Program-made: the position numbers and the translations under genes
Source: a virus
Reading direction: 5' to 3' (one strand)
IMG/VR virus record: IMGVR_UViG_3300050821_005389
Span: 32,001 to 96,000 of that record
Length of the DNA stretch: 64,000 bases
Notes under the pieces: generated by a model
The model's input: the letters and a program-made list of their open reading frames with translations, nothing else
Databases searched by the model: none
Told to the model about the DNA's origin: nothing
Shown: positions 19,746 to 33,516 of the stretch, piece by piece
Layout: every line of letters starts with the position of its first letter
Position numbering within the stretch: position 1 is the first letter of the stretch

Positions 19746-21024
19746 AAAGTTCTTTAGAAAATCTAAGGCCCAAGTGAAAGAACCCGTTCTTGTCGACGTA
19801 AATAAAATGACGCCGGAAGCGCAGTCGTTGGAAAAGTACTTGCTTCGAGGTATTGTGGGACAAGACAGAGCAGTTCACCAACTAGTGAGAGCGTTTGAAT
19901 CGTATCAAGCGGGTATCGAGGATCCCACCAAGCCATTATCCAATCTATTGTTTCTCGGTCCAACCGGCGCGGGTAAAACACGTACTATAGAAGTTTTTTG
20001 TGAATACTTCTGGGGCAGTCCGAACGCGATGATTAAAATGGATTGTTCTGAATTTACTCATAGTCATGAAATCGCTAAGTTGATCGGATCCCCGCCTGGG
20101 TATCTTGGACATAAGGAAACGCAGGCTAGGATCTGTAAATCCAAATTAGAAGCGTATTGGGACCGCGGACCTAAGTTTTCTGTCCTGTTGTTTGACGAGA
20201 TAGAAAAGGGTCATTCCGATCTTCACCAGTTGCTTTTGGGTATTATGGATAAGGGTATTCTGACTCTAGGAACTAATGATGAAGTTGATTTGAAAAAATG
20301 TTTCGTTATCATGACCTCGAATTTAGGCGCGAAGGCCGTTAGTAAGCATTTAAATAGTCGCGAAATTGGTTACGCTAATAAAGAAGACACAAACGAGAAA
20401 ATAGATCAAGCCATTTATAAAACCAGCATGGCAGCCGTCAAGAAATTCTTTGAACCAGAGTTCGTCAATCGCGTCGACAGGGTTATAGTATTTCGAGCAT
20501 TATCCGATGATACGATCCGGTCTATTTTAGATCTCGAACTAGAAAAGGTGCAGCGCCGCCTAAAGGACTCTAATAAATATATCGTTATAGGATGCTCTAA
20601 GCCAGCCAAAGAATTCTTGATTAAAGAAGGCACGAATTCCGAATTCGGTGCTCGCGAGCTTCGCCGAACGGTCGAGCGGGAAGTTGTTAATAAATTAGCT
20701 CGTGTGATAGCAACTAAGCAAGCCGTAGACGGCGATCTTATCAAAATAGAATACAATACCGGAGATAAGAATTTAACGTTTTCAGTATTTAAAAATGTCG
20801 TAGATATTCCGAAAATTAAACCCGCGCCAGTTGAAGAGTCGGAGAAGAAGCCTGTTGCTCCTAGTCAGGAAGATAAAACAGTTAATATGACGCAGGAGTT
20901 CGGTGACGTTGCTATTTGTTTCGTTCTGCCAAATATGGAGCCGTGTATCGGCTGTGGCGCAAGGTATTTACATCGAACTGACTGTCCTGAGAAAAAGGAA
21001 AACAATCCGTATGTTAAAAATTAA
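19708..21024 (+). CDS. ClpB/ClpC-like AAA+ ATPase with only the second (D2) module
   Basis: IVGQDRAV, LFLGPTGAGKT (Walker A), DCSEF...KLIGSPPGYLG, VLLFDEIEKGH (Walker B), IMTSNLG, PEFVNRVD, FGARELRR. Confidence 0.9.
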   Translation: MTGSRILNLSAAKKFFRKSKAQVKEPVLVDVNKMTPEAQSLEKYLLRGIVGQDRAVHQLVRAFESYQAGIEDPTKPLSNLLFLGPTGAGKTRTIEVFCEYFWGSPNAMIKMDCSEFTHSHEIAKLIGSPPGYLGHKETQARICKSKLEAYWDRGPKFSVLLFDEIEKGHSDLHQLLLGIMDKGILTLGTNDEVDLKKCFVIMTSNLGAKAVSKHLNSREIGYANKEDTNEKIDQAIYKTSMAAVKKFFEPEFVNRVDRVIVFRALSDDTIRSILDLELEKVQRRLKDSNKYIVIGCSKPAKEFLIKEGTNSEFGARELRRTVEREVVNKLARVIATKQAVDGDLIKIEYNTGDKNLTFSVFKNVVDIPKIKPAPVEESEKKPVAPSQEDKTVNMTQEFGDVAICFVLPNMEPCIGCGARYLHRTDCPEKKENNPYVKN

Positions 21025-21370
21025 ACTAATAGCTTTATTCTTGTTTCTGTTCATTTGCACCGGTACGGCGTTCGGTCAAGGTACTTCGGTTCCGCCGCTG
21101 AATTCGACGGCAGTTGATACGGGATGTGCTAGCTTTTCTGCTTGTACTTATACGGATTTAAATGTTCCTCCAGGTCAACATTTTTATTTTGTCATCGCGA
21201 TGAACGCGGCTGGCTATAGCGGACCGTCAAACGCTTTTTATTGCACCGTGCCAGCGGGCAGTCATAACGTCGTATTAAACTGGAATCCTAGTAATTCAGA
21301 TCCTACAGTCGGGTACTTTCTTTGGAGGGGAGCTCCGCCGACCAATATTAATGCGATCGGCACGTTCTGA
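21011..21370 (+). CDS. Secreted FN3-like protein, circularly permuted
   Basis: Signal peptide MLKIKLIALFLFLFICTGTAFG. The C-half of the FN3 module (TYTD...FYFV...SGPSN) precedes the N-half (HNVVLNW...GYFLWRG). Confidence 0.65.
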   Translation: MLKIKLIALFLFLFICTGTAFGQGTSVPPLNSTAVDTGCASFSACTYTDLNVPPGQHFYFVIAMNAAGYSGPSNAFYCTVPAGSHNVVLNWNPSNSDPTVGYFLWRGAPPTNINAIGTF

Positions 21371-21618
21371 TGTTCGGTCGTCGTTCTATAAAACTCACTT
21401 GGCACCCGTCGCCTGAACGCGTTGATGGATATTACGTCTACCGAGGAAGAAATTCTGGTCAAGAAGGATTACTTCCTGTTAATAAAACGATTGTATTAGG
21501 AACTAGTTATACTGACCAAGTCCCAATTATAGGAACTTTTTATTACGTAGTACGATCTAGTCGTAATGGCGTTTTTTCTAAGCCTTCTAATGAAGTTAAG
21601 ACAAAGAGATTATTTTAA
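21370..21618 (+). CDS. Single FN3-like module protein
   Basis: SIKLTW...VDGYYVYRG...GTSYTD...FYYVVRS...SKPSNEV. Confidence 0.75.
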   Translation: MFGRRSIKLTWHPSPERVDGYYVYRGRNSGQEGLLPVNKTIVLGTSYTDQVPIIGTFYYVVRSSRNGVFSKPSNEVKTKRLF

Positions 21619-21636
21619 CATTTTTTAAGGAGAAAC

Positions 21637-21915
21637 ATGGCACATTCTGTAAATCTTAGTTGGACCGGTTCGGCAGATTCGGTTTCCGGTTACAATGTTT
21701 ATCGTGGATCTTCGGCTGGAGGAGAAGGTCCGACACCGCTTAACGCGGCGTTGATCACCGGTACGACTTTCGATGATACTACAGTTGTTCCCGGTAATTG
21801 GTTCTACGTTGTCAAATCAGTTTTAAATGGCGTTTCGTCACAAGCTAGTAATGAAGTAGAAGCTACGATTCTTCCTGCTCCTCCTTCCGCTCTAGTCATA
21901 GTCTCAGAAAATTAA
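21637..21915 (+). CDS. Single FN3-like module protein with C-terminal PAPPSAL extension
   Basis: HSVNLSW...VSGYNVYRG...TTFDD...WFYVVKS...SQASNEV. RBS AAGGAG. Confidence 0.8.
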   Translation: MAHSVNLSWTGSADSVSGYNVYRGSSAGGEGPTPLNAALITGTTFDDTTVVPGNWFYVVKSVLNGVSSQASNEVEATILPAPPSALVIVSEN

Positions 21916-21938
21916 CTAAGAATAAAATTTTAAAATTC

Positions 21939-21969
21939 AAGGGAGACGGCACGTAGCGTCTCCTTTTTT
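21939..21969 (+). terminator. Rho-independent terminator
   Basis: GGAGACG-(8 nt)-CGTCTCC stem followed by TTTTTT. Confidence 0.75.
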
Positions 21970-21984
21970 ATTTAGGAGAAATTC

Positions 21985-22431
21985 ATGGCGGGAGAAAAGG
22001 GAAACCAAAATTCGATCGGGTTTCTTTCTTTATTATTTCAGGCAGTCGTTTCTACAAGTTATGCTAACCTGGCAGCTAACTCCGGCAGCAGTCCACTGAC
22101 AGTTCTTTACGTCAGTCTTCATACAGCCGATCCAGGTGCCGGCGGTAACCAAAACACGTCGGAAGCTGCTTATACTGGCTATGCTCGCGTATCAGTAGCT
22201 AGAACTACGGGCGGTTGGTCGATTTCAGGTGAAACGATTACAAACGTTTCATCTATTACTTTTCCAGCTTGCACTGGCGGCTCAGAAACAGAAACAAACG
22301 TCGGCATCGGTACAGCCTCGTCCGGAGCGGGTATTTTGCTTTGGACTGGTCCGTTGACGGCTTCGTTGGCTGTCTCTAGCGGTATTACGCCTTCATTTGG
22401 TGCGGGCGAATTGTCAGTGACCGAGGGATGA
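21985..22431 (+). CDS. Putative virion fibre/decoration structural protein
   Basis: LYVSLHTADPG...EAAYTGYARVSVAR...ITFPACT pattern, recognised from phage fibre modules. RBS AGGAG. Confidence 0.65.
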   Translation: MAGEKGNQNSIGFLSLLFQAVVSTSYANLAANSGSSPLTVLYVSLHTADPGAGGNQNTSEAAYTGYARVSVARTTGGWSISGETITNVSSITFPACTGGSETETNVGIGTASSGAGILLWTGPLTASLAVSSGITPSFGAGELSVTEG

Positions 22432-22436
22432 CCTAG

Positions 22437-23357
22437 ATGCCAACTCCAAATACTATACCAATTACTCCGGGTACAGGACAAAACCTGGATTCTTTACAAG
22501 TATCCACTTCGGCCGGAACGGTCAGCAGAGAAGTAGTCACAATAGGTGATGCATCCACGGGAGCGAACGTGGCTGCAGTAAGTTCGGTTGGTGCAGTAAG
22601 CACGAATTTAACACAAGTAGCAGGAAGTTCTGTAATAGCCATCGCGACAGGTATTCAAGCCGTGGGCACTTTGGGCCATAACGGACTTAGTTTTGATAAT
22701 CCTTCGGGATCCGCGCCACCTTCAAGTGCGCTTTGGATCGGCTATAAAGTAAGCGGCGTGGATTTTGAAGGTGTATCTCTTTCTAATCCGCTGCCAGAAA
22801 ATATAGCTCAAATTGCCGGTAGCACTGTAACCACGGCCGCAACCGGCGTCCAGCAAGTCGGCGTAGTCGGTAACGCAGGCGCCGCTTTCGACGCCGCTAC
22901 AGCCGCCCCTGTCCCTGCCAATGCTATTCAACAGGGCGTTCGAGCCGCTACTGCATATCCAACAGCCGTAACAAACGGCCAATTAGTCGGCGCAATGTCA
23001 GATAAAGCAGGTCGTGCCGCCGTCGTCCTTAATTCGCCTCGAGATCTTGTCGGTACGGCAGCTTTAACTTCTGCTTCTGGTTCAGCTACTAGTTTCATTG
23101 CCGCCGGAGCTGCCAACGTATTCAACGATATCGTATCACTGGTGATTACTAACTCAACTGCGACAGCTACCACAGTAACATTAAGCGATAACGGTTCCGG
23201 CGGCAATACATATCTTTTCGATCTCGCCGGTAACGGCGGTATCGTTATGAATTTTCCTACGCCTCTTCCTCAAGGAACTGCTGCTGCTGCTTGGGATGTA
23301 CTTAATAGCGCAGCAGTTTCACTACATTATACTTGTATCTTTATTAAAAATAAATAG
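22437..23357 (+). CDS. Putative virion structural/fibre protein
   Basis: 306 aa, Ala/Thr/Val-rich. Internal repeat NLTQVAGSSV.../NIAQIAGSTV... and a jelly-roll-like C-terminus. Confidence 0.55.
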   Translation: MPTPNTIPITPGTGQNLDSLQVSTSAGTVSREVVTIGDASTGANVAAVSSVGAVSTNLTQVAGSSVIAIATGIQAVGTLGHNGLSFDNPSGSAPPSSALWIGYKVSGVDFEGVSLSNPLPENIAQIAGSTVTTAATGVQQVGVVGNAGAAFDAATAAPVPANAIQQGVRAATAYPTAVTNGQLVGAMSDKAGRAAVVLNSPRDLVGTAALTSASGSATSFIAAGAANVFNDIVSLVITNSTATATTVTLSDNGSGGNTYLFDLAGNGGIVMNFPTPLPQGTAAAAWDVLNSAAVSLHYTCIFIKNK

Positions 23358-24017
23358 ATGGCCATTTCATTTGTAGGCGGAGCTTCCGCCGTCAGTTCTA
23401 GTGGTAGTACTGTCGCAGTTACTTATTCTCCTACTGCGGGAAATACAGTTATTGTTCTGGTGTCCTGCACTTCGACACAATCGGTTTCGGGCGTCGTCGA
23501 TAATGCTACCGGCGGGAGCTCTACGTATACTCAACAAGTAACCGTGGCCAACGGTTGCGATGTAGAAATTTGGTCAACTACGGTAAACGGTGCGAAAGCT
23601 GGCGCCACAACTATTACGGCCACCGTGACAGGCTCGACTCAAAAACCAGTTGCTTGTGTCGTAGAATATTCCGGCGTTACTAACTTCGGAAATACGGCTA
23701 ATAATACCGGAGCTACTACACCACTGACTGTTACGATTACAGCCCAAGATAATAACAGCGTTTTAATCGCCGGCTACGGGCAAAAATATTCCGGAACATT
23801 TACTCAAATTACCGGAAATCTCCGAGAAAAATCCGGACCGAGTAGCAACGGAAACGTCAATTGCGCTATCGTTGAGGATGCGGTTGTAGCTGCGGGTAGT
23901 GCGGTAATTTCATTGCACGGTACTACAGTGAATTATGGCGCCGTTGCTTTAGAACTTCTTCAAGCCGCCGCAACCGGACCTAATAACCAGTTAATGATGA
24001 CAGGCGCTGGAACATAG
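23358..24017 (+). CDS. Putative beta-sandwich fibre-associated protein
   Basis: 219 aa, all-beta Ser/Thr/Val pattern; ends QLMMTGAGT. Confidence 0.55.
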   Translation: MAISFVGGASAVSSSGSTVAVTYSPTAGNTVIVLVSCTSTQSVSGVVDNATGGSSTYTQQVTVANGCDVEIWSTTVNGAKAGATTITATVTGSTQKPVACVVEYSGVTNFGNTANNTGATTPLTVTITAQDNNSVLIAGYGQKYSGTFTQITGNLREKSGPSSNGNVNCAIVEDAVVAAGSAVISLHGTTVNYGAVALELLQAAATGPNNQLMMTGAGT

Positions 24018-24040
24018 TTAGAAGAATTTAGGAGTCAAGC

Positions 24041-25603
24041 TTGATAGCAGCAATTCTGGCTACCCGAGGTGCAGCTAGTAACCTCGCAGCGGCGATTAAT
24101 GGCCACGGATCTGTAACCGGAACATTAAGCACGCCCGGCCAGATTCAAGCCTCTGTAGCAGGTCATGCCTCAGTCTCAGGTCTTTTAATTCAAGCACATC
24201 ATGTAAATGTTACTTGGACTGCTGCGTCTGATCAGGTAGATGGTTACAATGTTTACCGTGGGTCGACTTCGGGCGGTGAAAGCGGAGTTCCGCTTAATTC
24301 TAGTATTATTACTGGTACTAGTTTCATAGACTACAGTCCGAATCTCGGACCTAATTTTTACATCGTAAGGTCAAGTATAGCGGGCGTTCTTAGCCAGATC
24401 TCGCCGGAAGTTGAAGTATTTATTGGCCAACAAGCTAGTTTTGGCGGTCACGCCACTGTTGGCGGAACGCTTATCGGTAAAACGGCATTAGTTTCCGCTA
24501 TTACCGGACACGCGTCTATTACAGCAACTGGTCCGGGAATTGGCAAGTTAATTGCATCGATCAATGGTCGCGCTTCTGTCTCGGGAACTTTATTTGGTAA
24601 AGCGGCTTTAATAGGATCCGTCGCGGGTCAAGCATCTGTTTCCGGAACGATTCAAGCAGTTCATACTACGTCTTCGGCGATAACTGGACACGCCACAGTT
24701 TCTGGAACGGCTGGCTCTTTTGGATTTTTGCAGTCAAGTATTACCGGGCACGCGACTGTTTTCGCAACGCCTCCTGGATTTGGACATTTACTAGCATCGG
24801 TTAATGGTCAAGCTACTGTCTCCGGACATATCGCCGGCGGCAGCCATATGGTCGGTAATATAAAAGGCCAAGCTACCGTTACCGGAACTTTAACCGGTCA
24901 AGCTATTATCGTACCGATATTCGCTAATATAAATGGCCAAGCCGTAGTTTCTTGTTCGCTAAATGGTCTTCAATTAACGCCACCACTATTTACTTTTGGT
25001 GTCTCGAGTCAAAATCCTGCTATATTAAATTTTACGCAGACTAGTGAAAGTAATTTTTATAAACCGGATATTTCGCCTTCGGGAAGTTTCTGGCCGTTAT
25101 CAGCTTTACCGGTCAATCAAGGTCAGTTAGGATGGGAAGCCGCTCGTAACCAGTTGTTAGTCCTACCTAGCTACGCATGGCTAGGAAGCCACCCAGCTAA
25201 AATTAATGCCGCTGGATATGTTTTAGCTCCGCGACAATCCCGTGGTGAATTTAATATCGTACTGTTACAGAATTATTTTCAGCAGACAGGGAGCGGTCCG
25301 GCAGGTATTGTAGTTTATAGCGATACATTAGCAACGTTTCCATTGAATAATATAATCGATCCCGGCACAACATGGCGTTGGAGTCTTCAAGCAGGTTTAA
25401 CCATCGGAAACGGTGGTATTGGCTGCGGGTATTCTATCACGCTGAACGGTACGACTTTTTACGGATCTGGTTTTTCTAATAGATACCAACAATTTAACAA
25501 AATCGTACAACCCGTCCAGTTAAGTATCGCTGGTTTCTTCTCCGGAACTACCTTTGGTTCTGATTTTTGCCAGTTGGGTTTGACCCAGTTCGAAGTTCGT
25601 TAA
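24041..25603 (+). CDS. Fibre-like protein with eleven ~20-aa repeats and an inserted FN3-like module
   Basis: Repeat consensus xLxAsIxG(H/Q)A(S/T)VSGTLxGxx. FN3 insert HHVNVTW...DGYNVYRG...FYIVRS. TTG start with AGGAG RBS. Confidence 0.7.
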   Translation: MIAAILATRGAASNLAAAINGHGSVTGTLSTPGQIQASVAGHASVSGLLIQAHHVNVTWTAASDQVDGYNVYRGSTSGGESGVPLNSSIITGTSFIDYSPNLGPNFYIVRSSIAGVLSQISPEVEVFIGQQASFGGHATVGGTLIGKTALVSAITGHASITATGPGIGKLIASINGRASVSGTLFGKAALIGSVAGQASVSGTIQAVHTTSSAITGHATVSGTAGSFGFLQSSITGHATVFATPPGFGHLLASVNGQATVSGHIAGGSHMVGNIKGQATVTGTLTGQAIIVPIFANINGQAVVSCSLNGLQLTPPLFTFGVSSQNPAILNFTQTSESNFYKPDISPSGSFWPLSALPVNQGQLGWEAARNQLLVLPSYAWLGSHPAKINAAGYVLAPRQSRGEFNIVLLQNYFQQTGSGPAGIVVYSDTLATFPLNNIIDPGTTWRWSLQAGLTIGNGGIGCGYSITLNGTTFYGSGFSNRYQQFNKIVQPVQLSIAGFFSGTTFGSDFCQLGLTQFEVR

Positions 25604-28600
25604 TTAACAACTCCGGTCAACCCAGTCGGTGGCGGAGGAATCGTTCCACTATTGATAATATAAGTCGCTTGGCTCGGTGGCGTCGTGTCGTTAAATCCGG
25701 TCAGCGTGCCGATCGCTGTCAAAACGGTAGTTCCGGTAGCGACTGGTATAGCAGTTCCAATATAAGTTTGAGTCGTTCCGCCGGAACAAACATGGCTAAC
25801 TTCCGTAGGTGTTGAGCCGTCGGTAGTATAGCAAATCGTAACGGAGCCGGGTGTAGTAACAGATAGCGTGACGTTTTGCGATCCCGTATAGGTCCCGCCT
25901 GCGGGAGCGAATGTTACTTGAGAAACGGTCGGTGTAGTTGATTGTTGCTGCTGGTAAGCGAATAAAGCCGCAGTGCAAACCAGTCCACTAGCGCAACTAA
26001 AAGATTGACTCGTAGCCGTTGATAGCGGTTGTGGATAAACCGGCGTTGACGCAAAAAAATTGACCGTTTTATCTGGCGTAACACCGGGTTCCCAACAGCC
26101 AGGACTTTGACCCGTCACCGGATCGAGGGCGGCGTTTAAACCGCCATTGCAAGGATTATTGGCGATTAATCCGGTACCGTTGGTACACTCAATAGTCAAT
26201 GAACTAGTCTGACAGTTATTATGAAATTTCTGCCAATTGACGATTTGCAACCCGTTCGGAGTAGAGTTTCCGCAACCGCCCGCAGCGTTTGAGTTGGCAA
26301 CGCAACTGTACGTTAAGAACCAATACGGCGTAGGATTACCATTTGGTGCCGGCAACAAAAATGGTATCGAAGTGGAACTAGCCCAATTAGTATTGCATGT
26401 CGACGGTCCGTTACAGTGTCCTCCGGCTAATCCGTTCACGGTAAATCCTTGCATGGGTTGCAGCGTTGCAACGTTTGTATCCGGTGTATATTGACTCGTC
26501 AACGCCGAACCCTTTAGAATACAATTATCAGTTACGTAATACTGGTGACTATATCTTTCCTGTGGATACGATCCACCGATCGATTGAACCAATTGTAAAT
26601 ACAATTCGTAATCTGGCTGCCACTCGTTTGCCGCAGTCGTAGAGTTACTAGGTATTCCGATCTTCGGGCCTACGACACCGCACAATCCATATCCCCAGTC
26701 GCCGTAACTGGTCCCGTTTGCTACGCCATTAGGCAAAGAAAGCTTGGCTGGACCACCGGTAAAAGCTGGCGGCGTTGTATTTAAAAAGTGGTGGAAATTG
26801 TCGTAGCCTAATCCGCCGGGATTCCACAAAGTTTTTGGCTGGAAATGTTCTTGGTCGATGTAATTTCCTATGGCATAAGCACTTTGCAGTAAACTACGAT
26901 CGCTCAGTATTTGTGTATTGCTACTCGTCCCGTTTAAAACCCCCGTAAATGTCACTCCACTCCAATCATACCCTCTGATATACTCTTCCGTTTGAGCAAA
27001 TTCAAAAATTCCTTCTTCAAGCTGCGAAGTCATAAAAGCTTTTGTCGTTGCGTGATTCGTAGGATCATCACCCGGTGGAATAGCTGCGTTTATTTGCATC
27101 GTAGCGGCACTCGACGGACCCGGCGAAACTCCGCAAGTTGCTCCGCTACTCAACCCAGTGCAACCCGAAGGCGATCCGGTTCCGGTCGGAGTATTGCTGC
27201 TATACGTGATTGTTACATTTGTTCCAGTTACATATGCTGAAGCGCATCCTACCGGATGGCAATCAAAAGCTACAGGCGTTACGCCCGAGACATAAACTGG
27301 CGTTGGCGATCCCGACGAAGTACTTATTCCGTCACAATTTGCTCCGGTCGAATCTGTCGGATAAACGTTTGTGCAAGCTGCGGTTACTACAGTAGGCGGT
27401 CCTGCACTCGTGACTGAAATCGATGAAATAGGAATCGTAGCGATAAAACTGTCGCTGACTCCATTATATTGAAAACCTCGGACTGGACTGATACCGGAAG
27501 AACACGGTCCGGCGCCTTGTCCGCCGGTGATAAAGCCGTCAGGACAATTAGTAGAGTCTGTCAACCCTAAAGGAAAGCCGGCGTCTATTTGAGGATTCTG
27601 GACAACGTAAGCTATGATATTTTCACCAGCCAAGGAAATACCAGTAGCTTTTCCAACAGGAGTTATCAACGGGTGAGGATAAGTATAAGGCGTATATGTA
27701 TAAACGACCGGACATCCCGCCGATTGATCTGCCGCCGATTCGCATCGATTCAGTGTTGCGGGTGCACTAGCCGGAAGGACTAAATCGCAAGGATTATGAT
27801 TCGGAGATACGGAAGCACAAGCACCTACGCTAGCCCCTGATTGAATATAGGTCGTATTTCCGTTGAATAATTTCCATAAAGCCGTATTGCCAGAAATACC
27901 CCAAATGTAAGCAGGACTTGATGTTTGATTGATACCTCTACCTATTTGAGTTTGCAAAGGATAAGTCGCCCCAGGCTGGCAATCTTCGGTATACTCAAAC
28001 GCTCCTTGAATAGTGTTACCGCCGGTTACCGTTTCATTAAATTCTATTCCACTACCGCCGCGGAGAGAAGTATAGTTTGATTGGTTAATTCCGGCAAATG
28101 TATTATACGTGTTGTTGTAAAGCTCCCAAAAACGAGTACTGTTTTCTGAATCAGTAGGTGTACAAGAAACCGATCCTCCGCTACCGTGTGCGTCAAACTG
28201 CATGTTATTTAATGTGTTGTGGCGAGCTGTTATGCGAGCAGCACTAAAATTTTCAATGCACGAAGACGCGTCGAAGAATCCACTAGTTGATAAATAGGTA
28301 CAAGTATTATCTTCAAAAAATCCCGATACCGGACCGCCCGGAACATAATCATTCGTCCATCCAGTAGGAAAAGTTCCGAACCAAGAATTATGAACTAACT
28401 CATCTGATCCGTGATGGGCAGTCAGAGTGTTATGATCCATTAACCAGGCGCCACCGCCAGAAAAAGCTACGATTGTTCCTTGCGCTGCCGGCGAACCGTC
28501 ATCAAAAGTATTGTGATCGAGTCTAAATGTAGCTCCTGTCGTTGAATTACCAGTATTAACATGAATCGCAGACTGCCCGTTATTTAATGATCCGGTGAAA

Positions 28601-31600
28601 TTAAAATTTGTAATTCGTTGAAGTCCTGTAGCTGGAGTTGTCACAACAACGGCCGATAAATTCCCGTTGTTAGTTGTACCCATATTAATATTTGCTCCAC
28701 CGCCATCTATAGTAATTAAATTAGAAGCGGTAAGAGTCAGCGGACTGGTCAATGTCCAAGTACAGTTTCCGCCGGGTACATATACCGTATCGCCTGCGGT
28801 AGATAGATTTATTTGCGTCGTAATATCCGAAACTGAACACGACGCTGCTGTACGGGCTACGCCAGTACCAAAACCACCGGGACAAGGAGAATTTGTATCG
28901 CCGGTAGTAGGATAATTCGCATTTCCTGTATCATAAGAAAATCTGCAAAGTTCACTGATCCAATGCAAAGCATGACCCGTCGCTCGAGTCACACCCATAT
29001 TCCCGTGTCCGGGATTCGGGCCAGTCAATCCGTTGCTATAGCCAAGTTGTAGATTGAATCGATCGTAACCACCTTGGTGAATTGAATCCAGCAGGTTACG
29101 ATCACCAGTAAGATAATACCACTCGACAATTCCCGCCGGCCAGCAATGGTCTAGGCTGGTTAATTCGTCGCACCAGTTCTCTATACCCATATTTGCGGTA
29201 TTAGTTCCGGCTGGAAGAATCATTTGTATTTTTTGCGGCCAGCCCCATTGGTCAAACGTATTGGCTGGACACGACGGCGCGGCTGGAGTTCCAGTACACA
29301 ACGATCGCCAATGACCTGTCCAATCCGAATGAGGCAATGCCGTATCAGCGACGTTAGTAATAAAGTTTAATCCGTAAGCGTATCTTCCGGGAACGCTTCC
29401 TGAAGTAGTGTTATATCCTCGTTGAATCCAATTCTGTATAAAAGATTCCATTACGTCGTGTTGATTACCAGCGCCGGCTTCGCCCCAAAGATACGCCGGA
29501 TAAACCGCCATATCAACGGGTTGAGTTCCTTTAGCCGTAATTGGGTAAGCAATACTTGTTGCCGTTGACGGCGTGTTATTCGAACCAAATTTCAATGTCG
29601 TCGAGGTAACAGCGGTTACTGTCAACGTAGCAGGTGAACAACCACCGGTACAACCGTAAAATGATACGACGGTTGCCGGACTACTTGAATATGCGTCCGT
29701 AGTATTCGGAACAGTAATTGTAGGAGTCCCGGCACCGCTCGTAATGGCTACTACGTTCTGTTGATCTTGAACGTCGTCTAAGCATTGGCCGGGGCTATTA
29801 GCTACCGTCTGACTACATGCTAATCCTATGCTCAGGTGATACGCATCTTCCTGCGAAGGATCAGGAATTTGATTCGGAAAGAAACAAACCGGTGTACTGG
29901 CCGAACAAGCTTGGTTATAATAAGCTACGGGTGCTCGAGCTATCAAAGGATGTTGAAAATCTAAAAACTCTTCGTTAGCCGCAGCGTAGTTTGATCCACT
30001 GACTACAGCGGGGTGGAAAAACCACAAAGTATTTGTATCGTTGCAATAATACGTATAACTGCAAACATAATCTTGTCCACCACCACCAAGGAATAAAGAT
30101 TGATCAGGAGCGATCGCAACGTGAAGTTCGGCGCCGCCAGAAGCTAGTTCAAGAGCCTTCGGCCAATGTGCTGCTAAATCGTCTATACCAATTTCTACGC
30201 CTTGAACACCATTGTCAACGTCAGCCCAACCCGCAGGATATTGGCTGGCTTGGCCTGAAAATTGAGTAGTTTGGGTTCCTATCGTGCCTAGATTAATCTG
30301 ATAACCGCATTGCGTATAAAACCAGCCTGTCGTCAAACCCGGACACGGCGTGCCTGTTGATCTAGCAATCGGAGACGTAAAACAATCCCAATTATTTGCC
30401 GCCGTGGTTGTTCCTGTGGCATTACATTGTGGTAAACCATTTGAAGCTGTTGCTATATCGGATGCTAAATGCTTATTCTGAAAACCAGTAGTAAGATCGG
30501 CGACTTGAGTTCCAGATAAGGTTGTGCCGGTTGTTGGAACCGTAGTGTGATTTCCTATACCCCAATTGGCGTTAACGCTTAATCCCGCCCATGTTACAAT
30601 TAATTCGGCCGATTTATATTGCTTATATGCGGTTTGAAGATCGTTACCAGGCGCTGTTAAAGAACCGGGTTGCTGCGCATTTTGTGGACAGACGGATACT
30701 ATTTTTACGTCAGAGCGACCAGCGTAAAAGTGCATTCGGACGTGACAAGCTACATAAGTATCACCTGACCCGTCGTTCGGTAGCGTGTTGACTAAAATAG
30801 CCGTTCGCATACTTCCGGCTTCTTCAATCGTAGCTGTACTAGTCGAGTCTTGGTTAGATAGATACGCCGTGTTACATCCTGCGGCGCAGCTAACTTGGTT
30901 TGTTACGCCGGATTGTCCCGGCGTTGGACCTAGAATTCTTATACCGTCGTTAGCGCCGTGGCTTCCCGTAGCGACAAAATGGTAAATTCCCGTACCCGCT
31001 GTCGTGCAGGCTAGATTGCCGCAATTGATATCTACGGCGTCGAATAAATTAAAATTATTTTTCTTAATGCTAAAACAAGCTGAGATTGCTGAAGGGCTGC
31101 AAACACCGTTCGACGTTGCTGCCGCACCGATCGTACGAACTATAATATGATTGCTGTCCGGACAATAAAGATCCGGCGTATTAGGTGCCGTACAATTTAT
31201 AGCTAGATTCGCAGATGGCTGGTTTCCTCCTGTTGCTGGCGTATACGTCAGAACATGACTGCTGTCTACGCCAGTAGGTCCGGAAGTAAATGTAGATTCT
31301 TGAAAATCGGCCAAAAGTACTTTAGTTTTTCCTGAAGGCCAATTAGCCAGAATCTGACAACTCCAATTTTGCGCTACGCTATTTACTTGAAGTTGAAAAT
31401 CTTGACAGCCATTCGCCCCGACAGATTCTGCTACAGGAACTCCTACTGTAACGGGAAGATTTGTATCTGTACCGGACGGACAAGTCGATCCGGGCCAGCA
31501 CTTATTTTGAACTGTCAAAGGAGCTAAAGCACCCGATGATGTAATCGGCACAGGCAGCATCCAAATTTGTTCAGCATTCGCGCCGGAGATAGTGGCGTTT

Positions 31601-33516
31601 TTCACGAATGCCACGAAGCAACCAGCGATAGTTTGGTGCAGCGGCGCTTGATTGCAATTGAAGGCATCCGTAACGTTGGGATCAAAGGCTCCGGTAGCAT
31701 TAAAGTTAGTCGGAGAATTGTTTTGGCAGGAGTTATTGGATAGCGCAGTACAAAACGTATTCTTGAATCCGGTCGGACCGGTAGGCGACGTAAGCGACGA
31801 TATATTTAAATCAGTCCAGGTTCCCGCTTGCCACTGGGCTAATGTAGTGCTGCCGCAACTTCCACCGCTGGGCCTGAACGCCCAAGTATGCGCCGCCGGA
31901 GCCTGACCGTCTACTAACATGACTTCATTAAGCGAACAAATATAGCTCATTAACGGATTCATAGTAGGCGGCGGTTGATTGACTGGACAGCTCGAATAGC
32001 AATTATCTTGTACTCGCTTCCACGTTCCTGCTGTAGCAGAAGTCAGGTTAAGAACCCAAGTGTCATTAAAAGTAGTAGCCGCCGTATTTGTATACTGAAA
32101 CCCGAACATTATGAGATTTCCGTTACCGTCGCCAGGAATAGTAGATTGTGATTGCGCCCAACGCGGATAAGGATAGGTTCCACCCGAGAAGTTCGTCGTC
32201 GGACACGGATAAGTACCGCCGCTACCAGGCGCAGTTTCGAGATTTGTCCATGTTCCTGTATTGATGGCGTATAACAGTGTTTCGCATTGGCTATTAGATG
32301 ACCAAGCGCCCCCAAAAAAGACTAGGACGTTGTATTTCGCGTCGTAACCCGTTAGAGGAAAATTGTACCCACAGGCTTGACTAACAGTACAGGGAATACC
32401 GTTCCCAGCGGGTGTAGAAACCTGCGCGTTTGGCGTAGCGCACCAAGTTCCAGCAGCAATGCCGCATATTGCGTTAAACACGTAACACTTCGCCCCTGTT
32501 GTGCATCCAGACGTCGAATTATTTTCCACGGCTTCGTACAAATCCATTATTCCAGCATGAGTAGTATAAATACGTGTTGCTCCGCCGCTACTATCACCCA
32601 CGCCTGCGCCCATCCAGAAATTTCCGTTTTTATCAAAAGCGGATCCTTCCGAGTGCCGTCCAACAGGCGTGAGTGGCGCGTCCGCAGGCCCAATGATTTT
32701 AGTCGGCGCTGGTTGTGCGCCAGAAGTGGTACAAGCTGGAGGAGAAGTACACGTATAAGACATTATTTGCGGGGTATTAGGCTCGTTATAAGTAAATTGT
32801 TGGCACAAATAAGTCGGAGTAGTCGGACTTCCGATACAATTGGATACGCTAGCAATTTGGTATTGTCCGTTATAAGCGCAATCCGGTGAGCTGCCATTCA
32901 TGATACCAGTATTGTCTACGCCTACGGTCGTACAATTAGTAGGAAGAGGGCCGACATATTGCGGGGCGTTTCCGCCCCCGACACTTATCGTAGATGGTCC
33001 TGCGCACCACGGCCAAGGATTAGCTACGCTGGCACAAAAAGATCTCGTACCCGCTGCGGTAGTAATCACAGTGACAACGCCAGCAGACCAGCTGATCGAT
33101 TGAATAGCTGTTCCGATGACAGAACCGTTTCCGCCGTTTTGGTGAAGCATACTGTCGTATAAAAGAAACATTCCGCCTGAAGTTCCGCCAGGGGAAGGAC
33201 AAGTATTATTAGTGTTATTTGGATCGTAGGCGAATAACGATTGACCCCACTCGTGACCGCCGCTTTGATTATCAGGCCACCAGGATTCGAGCATCCCATC
33301 TCCCGGATTGTACAGCAACGTCTGTTGTGCCGTCTGACTAGCCGGGACAGTACAATAAGGCACGTAAGTGTTCGAGGGAGCGCCACCACCGGTAGGATTA
33401 GGCGGAAATCCATTCGCGCCGTAGACTTTTTGCGACCAGGGGAATTGAGCTTTAGCCAACGGACAGAAAGCGAGAAAAACAAGAACAGCTAGAAGTCTTT
33501 TAAATTTAAATGTCAA
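25600..33516 (-). CDS. Giant secreted Cys-rich multidomain protein (propeller, lyase-like core, beta-helix, Fn3-associated domain)
   Basis: 2638 aa. Signal peptide MTFKFKRLLAVLVFLAFCPLAKA. Kelch-like LVFFGG/NDTWVL motifs. VTVGVP...LANWPSG resembles the PL26-type N-domain. GDTVYVPGGNCTW...YTPYTYPHPL beta-helix block. TFAPAGGTY...YTTDGSTPT. Ends PPPPTGLTGVVN. Confidence 0.75.
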   Translation of the reverse strand: MTFKFKRLLAVLVFLAFCPLAKAQFPWSQKVYGANGFPPNPTGGGAPSNTYVPYCTVPASQTAQQTLLYNPGDGMLESWWPDNQSGGHEWGQSLFAYDPNNTNNTCPSPGGTSGGMFLLYDSMLHQNGGNGSVIGTAIQSISWSAGVVTVITTAAGTRSFCASVANPWPWCAGPSTISVGGGNAPQYVGPLPTNCTTVGVDNTGIMNGSSPDCAYNGQYQIASVSNCIGSPTTPTYLCQQFTYNEPNTPQIMSYTCTSPPACTTSGAQPAPTKIIGPADAPLTPVGRHSEGSAFDKNGNFWMGAGVGDSSGGATRIYTTHAGIMDLYEAVENNSTSGCTTGAKCYVFNAICGIAAGTWCATPNAQVSTPAGNGIPCTVSQACGYNFPLTGYDAKYNVLVFFGGAWSSNSQCETLLYAINTGTWTNLETAPGSGGTYPCPTTNFSGGTYPYPRWAQSQSTIPGDGNGNLIMFGFQYTNTAATTFNDTWVLNLTSATAGTWKRVQDNCYSSCPVNQPPPTMNPLMSYICSLNEVMLVDGQAPAAHTWAFRPSGGSCGSTTLAQWQAGTWTDLNISSLTSPTGPTGFKNTFCTALSNNSCQNNSPTNFNATGAFDPNVTDAFNCNQAPLHQTIAGCFVAFVKNATISGANAEQIWMLPVPITSSGALAPLTVQNKCWPGSTCPSGTDTNLPVTVGVPVAESVGANGCQDFQLQVNSVAQNWSCQILANWPSGKTKVLLADFQESTFTSGPTGVDSSHVLTYTPATGGNQPSANLAINCTAPNTPDLYCPDSNHIIVRTIGAAATSNGVCSPSAISACFSIKKNNFNLFDAVDINCGNLACTTAGTGIYHFVATGSHGANDGIRILGPTPGQSGVTNQVSCAAGCNTAYLSNQDSTSTATIEEAGSMRTAILVNTLPNDGSGDTYVACHVRMHFYAGRSDVKIVSVCPQNAQQPGSLTAPGNDLQTAYKQYKSAELIVTWAGLSVNANWGIGNHTTVPTTGTTLSGTQVADLTTGFQNKHLASDIATASNGLPQCNATGTTTAANNWDCFTSPIARSTGTPCPGLTTGWFYTQCGYQINLGTIGTQTTQFSGQASQYPAGWADVDNGVQGVEIGIDDLAAHWPKALELASGGAELHVAIAPDQSLFLGGGGQDYVCSYTYYCNDTNTLWFFHPAVVSGSNYAAANEEFLDFQHPLIARAPVAYYNQACSASTPVCFFPNQIPDPSQEDAYHLSIGLACSQTVANSPGQCLDDVQDQQNVVAITSGAGTPTITVPNTTDAYSSSPATVVSFYGCTGGCSPATLTVTAVTSTTLKFGSNNTPSTATSIAYPITAKGTQPVDMAVYPAYLWGEAGAGNQHDVMESFIQNWIQRGYNTTSGSVPGRYAYGLNFITNVADTALPHSDWTGHWRSLCTGTPAAPSCPANTFDQWGWPQKIQMILPAGTNTANMGIENWCDELTSLDHCWPAGIVEWYYLTGDRNLLDSIHQGGYDRFNLQLGYSNGLTGPNPGHGNMGVTRATGHALHWISELCRFSYDTGNANYPTTGDTNSPCPGGFGTGVARTAASCSVSDITTQINLSTAGDTVYVPGGNCTWTLTSPLTLTASNLITIDGGGANINMGTTNNGNLSAVVVTTPATGLQRITNFNFTGSLNNGQSAIHVNTGNSTTGATFRLDHNTFDDGSPAAQGTIVAFSGGGAWLMDHNTLTAHHGSDELVHNSWFGTFPTGWTNDYVPGGPVSGFFEDNTCTYLSTSGFFDASSCIENFSAARITARHNTLNNMQFDAHGSGGSVSCTPTDSENSTRFWELYNNTYNTFAGINQSNYTSLRGGSGIEFNETVTGGNTIQGAFEYTEDCQPGATYPLQTQIGRGINQTSSPAYIWGISGNTALWKLFNGNTTYIQSGASVGACASVSPNHNPCDLVLPASAPATLNRCESAADQSAGCPVVYTYTPYTYPHPLITPVGKATGISLAGENIIAYVVQNPQIDAGFPLGLTDSTNCPDGFITGGQGAGPCSSGISPVRGFQYNGVSDSFIATIPISSISVTSAGPPTVVTAACTNVYPTDSTGANCDGISTSSGSPTPVYVSGVTPVAFDCHPVGCASAYVTGTNVTITYSSNTPTGTGSPSGCTGLSSGATCGVSPGPSSAATMQINAAIPPGDDPTNHATTKAFMTSQLEEGIFEFAQTEEYIRGYDWSGVTFTGVLNGTSSNTQILSDRSLLQSAYAIGNYIDQEHFQPKTLWNPGGLGYDNFHHFLNTTPPAFTGGPAKLSLPNGVANGTSYGDWGYGLCGVVGPKIGIPSNSTTAANEWQPDYELYLQLVQSIGGSYPQERYSHQYYVTDNCILKGSALTSQYTPDTNVATLQPMQGFTVNGLAGGHCNGPSTCNTNWASSTSIPFLLPAPNGNPTPYWFLTYSCVANSNAAGGCGNSTPNGLQIVNWQKFHNNCQTSSLTIECTNGTGLIANNPCNGGLNAALDPVTGQSPGCWEPGVTPDKTVNFFASTPVYPQPLSTATSQSFSCASGLVCTAALFAYQQQQSTTPTVSQVTFAPAGGTYTGSQNVTLSVTTPGSVTICYTTDGSTPTEVSHVCSGGTTQTYIGTAIPVATGTTVLTAIGTLTGFNDTTPPSQATYIINSGTIPPPPTGLTGVVN

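What the first reader, a model, noticed from the sequence alone, without database searches (positions are those of the whole stretch)
21011..25650. FN3 modules missing strand A plus proteins ending in a free strand A: possible donor-strand assembly system
Seen: the FN3-like modules at 21370, 21637 and inside 24041 all begin at the 'HSVxLxW' strand with no preceding PxAPxNL strand. Three proteins end in such a strand: PAPPSALVIVSEN (21637), GAPPTNINAIGTF (21011) and PPPPTGLTGVVN (the 2638-aa protein). Known: FN3 strand A has the consensus PxPPxNLxV, and Ig-fold pili polymerise by donor-strand complementation. Inference: the 92-aa protein has both a vacant groove and a C-terminal donor strand, so it could polymerise. 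It has a strong RBS and a terminator right after it, as expected of an abundant subunit. The 82-aa protein (groove only) would cap, 24041 would anchor, and the giant protein would plug in as cargo.
Basis: partly seen in the sequence, partly recalled or inferred. Interest (0 to 1): 0.75.

Follow-up and report, generated by a model that had tools for sequence, protein, structure and literature searches.

The report
Split FN3 plug-and-socket proteins in phage
A 117-kb phage of soil bacteria encodes four small fibronectin-type domains that lack their first strand and three proteins that end in exactly that strand, so the parts most likely snap together strand-into-groove, a joining principle known from pili but not described for this fold, and not yet tested at the bench.

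Summary
The complete 117-kb phage genome has four FN3-like modules and all lack strand A. Of 364 ORFs, exactly three end in a strand-A peptide, PP[ST]x[LIV] plus 5-6 residues, against about 0.2 expected. I first read the 119-aa protein's end as strand C', but a profile test showed it is the same tail as the 92-aa protein's.

The tails are conserved. All 24 clusters of the 92-aa family start at strand B and end in LPAPPTxL plus six residues. All 12 clusters of the permuted, signal-peptide family end in APPTxL.

A three-copy model places each tail antiparallel on strand B of the next copy, in the canonical strand-A register (ipSAE 0.78, best control 0.00).

In other phages and in Acidobacteriota genomes, genes ending in this tail lie right after genes ending in an A-less FN3.

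Binding has not been measured. Filament formation and the cap, anchor and cargo roles are inferred. The 520-aa protein looks more like the 'rope' of a GP4-type chain-like fibre.

Earlier notes of this scan describe the same split-FN3 idea on other DNA. Four literature searches found no paper on it.

The parts
21011..21370 (+). 119-aa protein. It has a signal-peptide-like N-terminus (aa 1-22, ends TAFG|Q), then a circularly permuted A-less FN3 in the order C'-E-F-G-B-C, then a 12-residue strand-A tail. It is both socket and plug, and is exported.
   Evidence: Profile hits in swapped order. Family of 12 clusters with P109, P110 and T111 invariant. AF2 model has helix 3-17, strands 45-52, 55-65, 73-80, 83-89 and 101-107, and a tail without strand at pLDDT about 53.
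21332..21367 (+). Strand-A tail (plug) of the 119-aa protein.
   Evidence: Scores best at the tail position of the 92-aa family profile: 21.1 against 6.2 at the next place.
21370..21618 (+). 82-aa protein. An A-less FN3 with no tail (socket only). Its start overlaps the stop of the 119-aa gene (TGATG).
   Evidence: A homologue without a tail sits in the same position in L001/L054.
21637..21915 (+). 92-aa protein. An A-less FN3 (strands B to G) plus a strand-A tail (socket and plug). It has no signal peptide.
   Evidence: AF2 mean pLDDT 94.8. FN3 fold by Foldseek and by PDB profile, 3mpc_A 6.2e-10. Family of 24 clusters. Three-copy model ipSAE 0.78 against 0.00.
21877..21912 (+). Strand-A tail (plug) of the 92-aa protein.
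   Evidence: P80 in 24/24, P83 in 22/24, T/S84 in 24/24, L86 in 23/24. In the model, residues 77-92 contact 3-14 and 57-74 of the next copy.
21939..21966 (+). Terminator-like hairpin with a T-run after the 92-aa gene.
   Evidence: 10-pair stem with 5 GC pairs, followed by TTTATTT.
21985..22431 (+). 148-aa homologue of the GP4 fibre I protein gp80. This is context only: the bead of a chain-like fibre.
   Evidence: PF23140 at 2.4e-20. PDB 8jou_a at 3.1e-08.
24041..25603 (+). 520-aa protein. It has 11 repeats G[HQR]A[ST]V.. at exact 20-residue spacing, an A-less FN3 inserted after repeat 2, and a C-terminal domain of about 200 aa. It is a candidate rope protein carrying one socket.
   Evidence: Repeat positions 21, 41, 136, 156 ... 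276, 299. No PDB or Pfam sequence match.
24197..24424 (+). A-less FN3 module (socket) inside the 520-aa protein, aa 53-128.
25600..33516 (-). 2638-aa exported protein ending in a CHB_HEX_C_1 domain (aa 2538-2611) followed by a strand-A tail. It is plug only.
25603..25638 (-). Strand-A tail (plug) of the giant protein.
   Evidence: Best at profile position 80: 26.1 against 7.3. The one close homologue found lacks it.

Best explanation
The locus encodes a genetically split FN3 'plug-and-socket' system.

SOCKETS. These are FN3 domains made without strand A, so strand B is an open edge and part of the core is uncovered. There are four: the 82-aa protein, the 92-aa protein, the module in the 520-aa protein, and the permuted domain of the 119-aa protein.

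PLUGS. These are 11-12-residue C-terminal tails, [AP]PP[ST]x[LIV] plus 5-6 residues. They have the sequence, and the spacing from the preceding strand, that strand A of the next repeat has in a tandem FN3 array.

MECHANISM. A plug lies antiparallel on strand B of a socket on another chain. It puts its conserved Pro and Leu into that chain's core and rebuilds a complete FN3 with a nick in the A-B loop. No chaperone, usher or protease is needed.

CONSEQUENCES. Proteins with both parts (92-aa, 119-aa) can chain head to tail into a non-covalent copy of a tandem FN3 array. Socket-only proteins (82-aa, 520-aa) can only receive. The plug-only giant enzyme can only dock.

The parts probably form two sets. 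One is exported (giant and 119-aa). The other is made in the cytoplasm with the virion (92-aa, 82-aa, 520-aa).

SHOWN: the sequence features, their conservation, their recurrence as neighbouring genes elsewhere, and a model. INFERRED: binding, chain length, which plug goes into which socket, and the biological purpose.
For: 1. INVENTORY. There are four A-less modules, no complete FN3, and three tails in a genome that CheckV estimates as 100% complete.

2. SELECTION ON THE 92-aa DESIGN. 24 of the 25 scored candidates matched, at 53-67% identity. All start MAH/MSH at strand B. All end about six residues after the tail's Leu. The Atlas holds viral clusters of 103 and 73 members.

3. SELECTION ON THE 119-aa DESIGN. 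12 of 15 candidates matched. PPT is invariant and the tail length is the same.

4. THE THREE TAILS ARE ONE ELEMENT. 13 of 13 tails score best at the tail position of the 92-aa family profile.

5. THREE-COPY MODEL.
- ipSAE was 0.78, 0.79 and 0.77 in three runs. The best of 3 controls was 0.00.
- The runs agree in at least 98% of contacts, and the partner's pLDDT is at least 91.
- The tool's calibration: the mark was reached by 20 of 30 proteins solved as pairs of one chain and by 1 of 23 solved as single chains. These counts hold only roughly here, because I used my own alignment and three copies.
- The register is antiparallel and canonical: 88 with 5, 86 with 7-9, 83 with 9-12.
- P83 lies on W9, and L86 lies against 57-59 and 71-74.
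- The last copy's own tail is not in any interface, so the chain is open.

6. GEOMETRY (FN3 topology is established knowledge; the register is). Strand G ends at the pole opposite to where strand A starts. Only four residues (79-82) separate them here, the same as in tandem arrays. A canonical fold-back in cis is therefore not possible.

7. RECURRENCE ELSEWHERE.
- In phage locus L036, a signal-peptide protein ending in an A-less FN3 is followed by two signal-peptide enzymes that end in the same tail. L038 has a like pair.
- In 80 Acidobacteriota-type loci, the three best tail scores among 4880 frames belong to the genes placed directly after the socket gene: L078, L101 and L120, at 34.6, 28.9 and 29.3 against a mean of -4.2 and sd of 6.8.
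- The 119-aa-like and 92-aa-like genes are neighbours in 5 of the 6 metagenome loci I inspected, out of 27 found.

8. ONLY ONE MODULE IN RELATED PHAGES. In 5 of 5 related phage records the 92-aa-like gene is the only such module. Two of these records are at least 95% complete. There its plug must meet its own kind of socket or a non-FN3 partner.

9. SIZE-MATCHED PAIR. The window's 119-aa protein has Phe where 11 of 12 family members have Val (the position equal to 74). It has Ala where 8 of 12 have Ile or Val (equal to 88). The giant protein's tail has Gly there. Residues 88 and 74 touch in the model.
Against: - No experiment exists. The model may reproduce tandem FN3 arrays from memory, since a tail plus the next subunit equals a nicked array. 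The tool itself warns that a pass can reflect likeness.
- The AF2 monomer of the 92-aa protein gives its tail pLDDT 85-94 without a DSSP strand. The tail may therefore pack on its own domain in a non-canonical way.
- A-less modules of this subtype end 64 of 80 bacterial proteins with no tail, and only 3 of the 80 loci have a plug gene nearby. An unfilled groove is evidently tolerated.
- The giant protein's tail is absent from its one close homologue, P0179 (56% identity over 304 residues, then divergent).
- The two proteins with signal peptides and the three without would meet only after lysis. The gene order (119-aa tail, then 82-aa body) points to a pairing across compartments.
- The size-matched pair is a single case. 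Two family members with Gly at that tail position keep Val in the groove.
Confidence: 0.5

Rival explanations
1. Self-capped monomers. The tail folds back on its own domain in a non-canonical, parallel or irregular way. It shields the exposed edge of strand B against aggregation. The proteins act as ordinary single Ig-like decoration or adhesion domains.
For: The AF2 monomer gives the 92-aa tail pLDDT 85-94. A-less modules without any partner are common: 64 of 80. Monomeric type V pilins also hold their donor strand in a self-complementing form before assembly (PMC13655056, passages).
Against: The conserved Pro and Leu, and the four-residue linker, match the inter-domain geometry of tandem arrays, which does not allow canonical cis insertion. 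The 119-aa tail is modelled as free, at pLDDT about 53. Large enzymes that have no FN3 body of their own carry the same tail, so for them a cis cap makes no sense.
Confidence: 0.2
2. The tails dock onto something other than the phage's own sockets. Candidates are capsid or tail proteins, or the many C-terminal A-less FN3 modules of host (Acidobacteriota) surface proteins. The phage's sockets would then be unrelated decoration domains.
For: Host-type genomes are full of terminal A-less modules of the same subtype. In two near-complete related phages the 92-aa-like gene is the only FN3 module.
Against: The plug and the socket are conserved together in the same small proteins, and plug genes lie beside socket genes. 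Cognate pairs encoded together are therefore the simpler reading. Nothing was tested against host proteins.
Confidence: 0.15
3. Evolutionary debris. The ORFs are fragments of a decayed tandem FN3 array, and the tails are meaningless leftovers of domain boundaries.
For: The module is an ordinary tandem-array repeat: 9957 hits, the best being arrays with up to 44 repeats. The giant protein's tail is not conserved in P0179.
Against: The exact start and end points are kept at only 53-67% identity in 24 and 12 clusters, with invariant tail residues. No frameshifted continuation exists in any frame. The genes have an RBS, translational coupling and a terminator.
Confidence: 0.03

Closest known systems
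Type V pili of Bacteroidota (FimA, Mfa1): protease-mediated strand exchange (PMC13655056, abstract and passages read)
   Same: The donor strand is C-terminal. It fills a groove left by a missing N-terminal strand of the next subunit. Subunits with both parts polymerise head to tail. Tip and anchor subunits lack one of the two parts.
   Different: Type V pilins are two-domain lipoproteins. Their groove is opened by gingipain cleavage of an N-terminal anchor strand, and the final pairing described is parallel. Here the fold is a single FN3. The N-terminal strand is absent from the gene, so no protease is needed. The modelled pairing is antiparallel and canonical for FN3. Three of the five proteins have no export signal.
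Chaperone-usher pili (Pap/Fim, Caf1) and related donor-strand systems (CPR Pam pili, PMC13278184, passages read; TasA, PMC9674648, search listing only)
   Same: An incomplete Ig-like fold is completed by a strand from the next subunit. Acceptor-only tip subunits exist.
   Different: In these systems the missing strand is the last one and the donor is an N-terminal extension or a linker. Periplasmic PapD-like chaperones are required. No PapD_N match exists in this genome.
Chain-like fibres of podophages GP4 and A1002 and whiskers of myophage Bas63 (PMC13730344 and PMC12609058, passages read; the GP4 paper itself, J Mol Biol 2023, was not seen)
   Same: These are phage virion parts joined by strand complementation in trans. 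The rope runs through grooves of gp80-like monomers and completes their incomplete sandwiches. This window encodes a gp80 homologue and a repeat protein beside the FN3 genes.
   Different: There the donor is an internal repeat of a long rope, and the acceptor is the gp80 fold, not FN3. The 92-aa family also occurs without any gp80 homologue: 0 of 5 related records have one.
Strand exchange in isolated FN3 or Ig domains: the Tencon N-terminal strand-swapped form (PDB 4m6a) and the myomesin My4 extension with obscurin-like-1 (PDB 5fm5)
   Same: Both appear among the Foldseek matches of the 92-aa model. They show that FN3 strand A can be exchanged between chains, and that an extension after an FN3 can join a partner's Ig-like domain. 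The mechanistic detail for 5fm5 is recalled, not read here.
   Different: One is an engineered scaffold and the other a muscle protein pair. Neither is a gene-encoded split of FN3 used as a repeated docking code.

Membership tests
Fibronectin type III fold | Seven-strand beta-sandwich similar to solved FN3 domains, with a conserved Trp in strand B and Tyr in strands C and F | tested here: met
   AF2 pLDDT 94.8 with five of the strands assigned. Foldseek probability 1.00 and TMq 0.6-0.7 to many FN3 structures, best E-value 1.6e-3. Profile hit to 3mpc_A at 6.2e-10. W9 in 23/24, Y19 in 24/24, Y57 in 24/24. Pfam PF00041 itself does not match.
Fibronectin type III fold | Strand A at the N-terminus of the same chain | tested here: not met
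   The ORFs start at strand B, and no upstream frame encodes a strand A. The strand-A-like peptide sits at the C-terminus.
Chaperone-usher donor-strand pili | Periplasmic PapD-like chaperone (and usher) encoded with the subunits | tested here: not met
   PF00345 PapD_N has 0 matches at E <= 0.01 in the complete genome. The usher family was not searched.
Chaperone-usher donor-strand pili | N-terminal extension as donor, C-terminal strand G missing | tested here: not met
   The donor is C-terminal and the missing strand is A.
Type V pili | C-terminal donor strand inserted into the next subunit | tested here: inconclusive
   Met in a model only: ipSAE 0.78 against best control 0.00, with the calibration counts given in the For line. 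There is no experiment.
Type V pili | Lipoprotein precursor whose N-terminal strand is removed by a protease to open the groove; FimA/Mfa1 two-domain fold | tested here: not met
   The 82-aa and 92-aa proteins have no signal or lipobox and begin at strand B. The fold is a single FN3.
GP4-type chain-like fibre | gp80-like bead protein | tested here: met
   PF23140 at 2.4e-20 (cut-off 27 bits, score 73.6). 8jou_a at 3.1e-08.
GP4-type chain-like fibre | Rope protein with serial docking strands for the beads | tested here: inconclusive
   The 520-aa protein has 11 repeats at 20-residue spacing. It has no sequence match to any solved chain, and no complex was modelled.

The most novel reading that the evidence does not exclude
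Soil Acidobacteriota and their phages share a general, gene-encoded docking code. An FN3 domain is split at the A-B loop into a 12-residue C-terminal plug and an A-less socket. It is used like a non-covalent tag and catcher.

In this phage there are two orthogonal sets, matched by residue size: Phe in the groove with Ala or Gly on the plug, against Val in the groove with Ile on the plug. One set assembles exported proteins and tethers a 2638-aa glycan-active enzyme. The other builds a bead-chain of 92-aa subunits on the virion.

Because host surface proteins end in the same kind of socket, phage plugs could also insert into host sockets.
Probability: 0.3. Interest if true: 0.85.

Novelty: new variant of a known kind. 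Interest (0 to 1): 0.7.

Why it matters
If the tails do plug into the A-less domains, this is a chaperone-free, protease-free form of donor-strand complementation built on the commonest extracellular fold.

- It would explain a family of small phage proteins with more than 170 members that has no annotation.
- It would show how separate genes can build fibres of variable length and tether large enzymes.
- It would offer a natural 12-residue tag and 80-residue catcher pair for protein engineering.
- It would change how the many 'truncated' FN3 domains and odd C-terminal PPTxL peptides in metagenomes are annotated.

Tried and rejected
1. I first read the 119-aa protein's end as the C-C' region of a truncated FN3, from an alignment by eye. 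I rejected this after the family alignment and the profile slide.

2. I tested whether the 92-aa protein is the Ig-like collar of a GP4-type fibre. No gp80 homologue occurs in 0 of 5 related phage records. The GP4 collar is described as a jelly-roll (PMC13730344 passages). The idea is not supported.

3. A prophage-junction origin for the giant protein's truncated end is rejected. The record is a complete phage genome, and no FN3 continuation follows the stop in any frame.

4. IMG/VR scans with the giant protein's C-terminus and with the 520-aa protein found no relative. The scan with the 119-aa protein found one partial match.

5. Tandem Repeats Finder sees no DNA repeat in the 520-aa gene. 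The periodicity is at the protein level only.

6. PHROGs and Pfam give no function for the small membrane proteins next to 92-aa-like genes, apart from DUF5317.

7. A motif search for those neighbours in this genome found nothing.

8. A frameshift fusion of the 119-aa and 82-aa genes was considered. There is no slippery site, and the L001 homologue has a different junction. I did not pursue it.

9. Literature searches found no paper describing split FN3 docking. The terms were: 'donor strand' + bacteriophage + 'fibronectin type III'; 'strand complementation' + phage + Ig-like + capsid; 'fibronectin type III' + 'strand swapping' + polymerization + 'donor strand'; 'strand complementation' + FN3. 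The library lacks most subscription journals, and supplements were closed, so this is not proof of absence.

10. I could not inspect model coordinates. Where the 92-aa tail lies in the monomer model is therefore unknown.

Full report
WHAT THE WINDOW IS

The window is bases 32001-96000 of a single 117,043-bp virus record. CheckV rates the record 100% complete. The flagged region lies in the virion arm. The order of genes is:
- ejection and lytic-transglycosylase proteins;
- two glycosyltransferases;
- a ClpB-D2-like ATPase at 19708-21024;
- three small FN3 genes;
- a homologue of the GP4 fibre I protein gp80 at 21985-22431 (PF23140 2.4e-20; PDB 8jou_a 3.1e-08);
- two fibre-like genes;
- a 520-aa gene at 24041-25603;
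- a convergent 2638-aa gene at 25600-33516, overlapping the 520-aa gene by four bases.

The FN3 subtype is overwhelmingly that of Acidobacteriota genomes: nearly all of the 80 loci kept, and the structure neighbours. The host is therefore probably an acidobacterium. This is an inference.

CHECKING THE OBSERVATION

I built a profile from the three named modules and searched all six frames of the genome. Four frames scored below E = 0.63:
- the 82-aa ORF;
- the 92-aa ORF;
- the 520-aa ORF, with the module at aa 53-128;
- the 119-aa ORF, whose match comes in two pieces in swapped order, profile 26-75 and then profile 4-27.

The first three built the profile and so match it by construction.

Pfam's fn3 model finds nothing in the genome at E <= 1. 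The genome therefore has four FN3-like modules and none of them has a strand A. The 82-aa and 92-aa ORFs begin at strand B. Nothing like PxxPxxL precedes the 520-aa module. No alternative frame supplies the strand.

Of 364 ORFs of at least 60 aa, exactly three end in PP[ST]x[LIV] plus 5-6 residues. About 0.2 are expected. The pattern was chosen after seeing them.

A phmmer search of 1.84 billion representatives gave 9957 hits at E <= 0.001. The top 150 are large proteins with 3 to 44 matched stretches. In all 7 that I inspected, the segment aligned with the 92-aa tail is the PxAPxGL strand A of the next repeat. So the 92-aa protein is a normal tandem-array unit whose reading window is shifted by one strand.

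A CORRECTION OF MY OWN

The family alignment (12 of 15 candidates) shows an invariant PPT and a tail of the same length as in the 92-aa family. In an ungapped slide against the 92-aa family profile, all 12 tails and the giant protein's tail score best at position 80 or 81. Scores there are 20-32, against 2-10 elsewhere, with z of 3.5-7.4 against shuffled tails.

The AF2 model of the 119-aa protein has mean pLDDT 73.8. It shows a signal-like helix at 3-17 and strands in the order E, F, G, B, C. The tail has no strand and a pLDDT of about 53. This is a permuted A-less core with a free tail.

CONSERVATION

The 92-aa design is a real family.
- 24 clusters of 90-121 aa (24 of 25 candidates), at 53-67% identity to the window's protein.
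- H3 and P80 are invariant.
- P83 is in 22/24, T84 in 23/24 and L86 in 23/24.
- Every member ends about six residues after the Leu.
- IMG/VR holds further stand-alone members of 94-100 aa with the same ends: L014-L018 and L020, out of 37 loci found.
- The Atlas lists viral clusters of 103 and 73 members.

The trio of this window recurs in L001/L054, next to terminase and portal genes rather than fibre genes. The pair of 119-aa-like and 92-aa-like genes is adjacent in 5 of the 6 metagenome loci I inspected, out of 27 found. In those loci, and at the 119-aa/82-aa junction here (TGATG overlap), the gene boundary falls exactly in the A-B loop of what would otherwise be one FN3.

MODELLING

The AF2 monomer of the 92-aa protein is confident (pLDDT 94.8). 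Strands B, C, E, F and G are assigned. The tail has pLDDT 85-94 but no DSSP strand. I could not inspect coordinates.

Foldseek and a PDB profile search confirm the FN3 fold.

Three copies of the 92-aa protein, folded with the family alignment, gave the following:
- ipSAE of 0.78, 0.79 and 0.77, against 0.00 for the best of three controls;
- at least 98% contact agreement between runs, and partner pLDDT of at least 91;
- by the tool's calibration, the mark was reached by 20 of 30 proteins solved as pairs of one chain and 1 of 23 solved as single chains. These counts hold only roughly here;
- residues 77-92 of one copy touch 3-14 and 57-74 of the next, in an antiparallel register (88 with 5; 86 with 7-9; 83 with 9-12);
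- Pro83 lies on Trp9, and Leu86 lies among strands B, F and G. This is the canonical strand-A packing;
- the last copy's tail is in no interface, so the chain is open rather than a closed swap.

This shows that the parts fit. It does not show that they bind. A tail plus the next subunit is simply a nicked tandem array, which the model knows well.

Geometry gives independent support. In FN3, strand G ends at the pole opposite the start of strand A. Only residues 79-82 lie between them here, as in covalent arrays. A canonical cis insertion is therefore impossible.

RECURRENCE BEYOND THIS PHAGE

I scored C-termini in the loci I had fetched. Observed against expected counts were:
- 12 against 0.64 in IMG/VR loci L014-L049 (seven are 92-aa-like proteins, selected by the query itself);
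- 7 against 0.42 in metagenome loci;
- 3 against 1.08 in 80 bacterial loci.

The independent cases are telling.

In phage locus L036, a 601-aa signal-peptide protein ends in an A-less FN3. It is followed, with overlapping stop and start, by a 524-aa and a 383-aa signal-peptide enzyme-like protein that both end in the same PPTGLTAVPH tail. L038 has a like pair.

In the bacterial loci, the three best tail scores among 4880 frames are 34.6, 29.3 and 28.9, against a mean of -4.2 and sd of 6.8. They belong to L078, L120 and L101. Each is the gene directly downstream of the gene that ends in the A-less module.

Here plug and socket proteins share an export signal, so the compartment objection does not arise.

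EVIDENCE THAT CUTS THE OTHER WAY

- In 64 of 80 bacterial loci the A-less module is simply the last domain of a multi-Ig protein and ends within six residues of strand G. Only 4 of 80 have PxxPxx[LIV] upstream, and only 3 have a plug gene nearby. An empty groove is evidently viable.
- The giant protein's one close homologue (P0179, 56% identity over 304 residues) diverges before the CHB_HEX_C domain and has no such tail.
- The monomer model's confident tail leaves room for a non-canonical self-cap.
- In this window two proteins have signal peptides and three do not.

HOW THE PARTS MAY SORT

In 5 of 5 related phage records, two of them at least 95% complete, the 92-aa-like gene is the only such module. 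There the plug's FN3 partner can only be its own kind. This favours self-association.

In this window the exported proteins (119-aa socket and plug; giant protein plug) and the non-exported ones (82-aa socket; 92-aa socket and plug; 520-aa socket) each form a workable set.

One sequence detail fits this.
- The 119-aa groove has Phe where 11 of 12 relatives, and the 92-, 82- and 520-aa modules, have Val.
- Its own plug has Ala where 8 of 12 relatives have Ile or Val.
- The giant protein's plug has Gly there, and the 92-aa plug has Ile.
- These two positions (74 and 88) touch in the model.

It is a single case. Two relatives with Gly on the plug keep Val in the groove.

THE 520-aa PROTEIN

It carries 11 repeats of G[HQR]A[ST]V... 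at exactly 20-residue spacing. Two lie before and nine after the FN3 module. A C-terminal domain of about 200 aa follows.

Papers on A1002 and Bas63 (passages read) describe GP4-type chain-like fibres. In these, gp80-like dimers with incomplete sandwiches are strung 'like beads on a string' on a rope that completes them. GP4 has five dimers on a separately encoded rope.

With a gp80 homologue three genes upstream, the 520-aa protein is best read as such a rope, bearing one FN3 socket, rather than as a mere anchor. This rests on analogy. It has no sequence match in the PDB.

The 92-aa family itself is not tied to this fibre type: gp80 is found in 0 of 5 related records.

COMPARISON WITH KNOWN SYSTEMS

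The mechanism works most like type V pili. There too the donor is C-terminal, the groove is left by a missing N-terminal strand, and some subunits lack one of the two parts (PMC13655056). But it is not a member of that family:
- the fold is FN3;
- no protease step is needed, because the strand is absent from the gene;
- there is no lipoprotein precursor.

It is not a chaperone-usher system either. The polarity is wrong, and no PapD_N match exists.

Strand complementation between phage virion proteins is known from the GP4/Bas63 rope. Exchange of FN3 strand A between chains is known from an engineered scaffold (4m6a).

Four full-text searches found no paper on a gene-encoded split FN3 used for docking. 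The library is incomplete and supplements were closed.

Earlier AI notes of this scan describe the same idea on other DNA, including another Acidobacteria phage and enzyme-lipoprotein pairs. They are not independent evidence. My own survey agrees with them.

VERDICT

A plug-and-socket reading is the best explanation, at about 0.5. Self-chaining of the 92-aa protein is plausible. The cap, anchor and cargo roles are unproven.

This is a new variant of donor-strand complementation. Interest is 0.7.

Noticed in passing
window 24041-25603: The 520-aa protein has 11 repeats G[HQR]A[ST]V.. at exactly 20-residue spacing, 2 before and 9 after the FN3 insert. It lies three genes after a gp80-like gene. 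It looks like the rope of a GP4-type chain-like fibre, with roughly one repeat per bead monomer.
   Followed up: partly
window 21367-21372; L051-L055: The gene boundary after the 119-aa protein's tail (TGATG overlap) falls in the A-B loop. Tail plus next gene reads like one intact FN3 cut by a stop and a start. In four metagenome loci the next gene is the 92-aa-like one instead of the 82-aa one.
   Followed up: partly
L036 3450-7974; L038 3657-6748; L078 3470-6177; L101 3815-6071; L120 4177-6042: Signal-peptide proteins ending in an A-less FN3 are followed directly by enzyme-like proteins of 380-620 aa that end in PPT.[LV]..V.H-stop. Some have a 'DMGAYE/DMGAF' end typical of beta-helix enzymes; that motif reading is recalled, not tested.
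   Followed up: partly
L078-L157 (80 loci, mostly Acidobacteriota MAGs): The same FN3 subtype is the very last domain of many secreted multi-Ig (ASH/HYDIN-like) proteins. It starts at HSVxLxW right after '..LSGTG' and stops within 6 residues of strand G in 64 of 80 loci. This is a possible general socket or sorting domain.
   Followed up: partly
L021, L023, L039 (IMG/VR): Proteins of about 400-510 aa begin, right at the start codon, with an A-less FN3. They continue into a repeat-rich region ('..gdvgv.pgtsitgf..') that resembles ice-binding-like DUF3494. The family name is recalled, not tested.
   Followed up: no
L014 5326-5616: Next to a 92-aa-like gene lies a second A-less FN3. In place of the strand-A tail it ends in an amphipathic, Trp-rich helix-like peptide.
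   Followed up: no
P0185, P0207, P0212, P0220, P0221: Several large proteins that share the giant protein's CHB_HEX_C end finish with short, very hydrophobic beta-like tails (for example ..PP.IINGxIIIGxPIxK). These may be another kind of docking strand.
   Followed up: no
window 19708-21024: A stand-alone ClpB D2-type AAA+ gene (AAA_2 2.3e-34, ClpB_D2-small 1.2e-18) overlaps the start of the 119-aa gene. It is not next to the trio in L001/L054, so no conserved link was seen.
   Followed up: partly
L015-L018, L001, L051: 92-aa-like genes usually sit beside small membrane proteins (DUF5317-like, 4e-10 and 6.8e-11; and a 72-83-aa 'MK.FIK..FSDNG' protein) and close to the large terminase gene. No homologue of these membrane proteins was found in this genome by motif.
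   Followed up: partly
window 21011-21370 and 25603-25638: The window's 119-aa protein alone has Phe at groove position G+3 (Val in 11 of 12 relatives) and Ala at the facing plug position. The giant protein's plug has Gly there. This is a possible specificity switch that separates the exported set from the virion set.
   Followed up: partly
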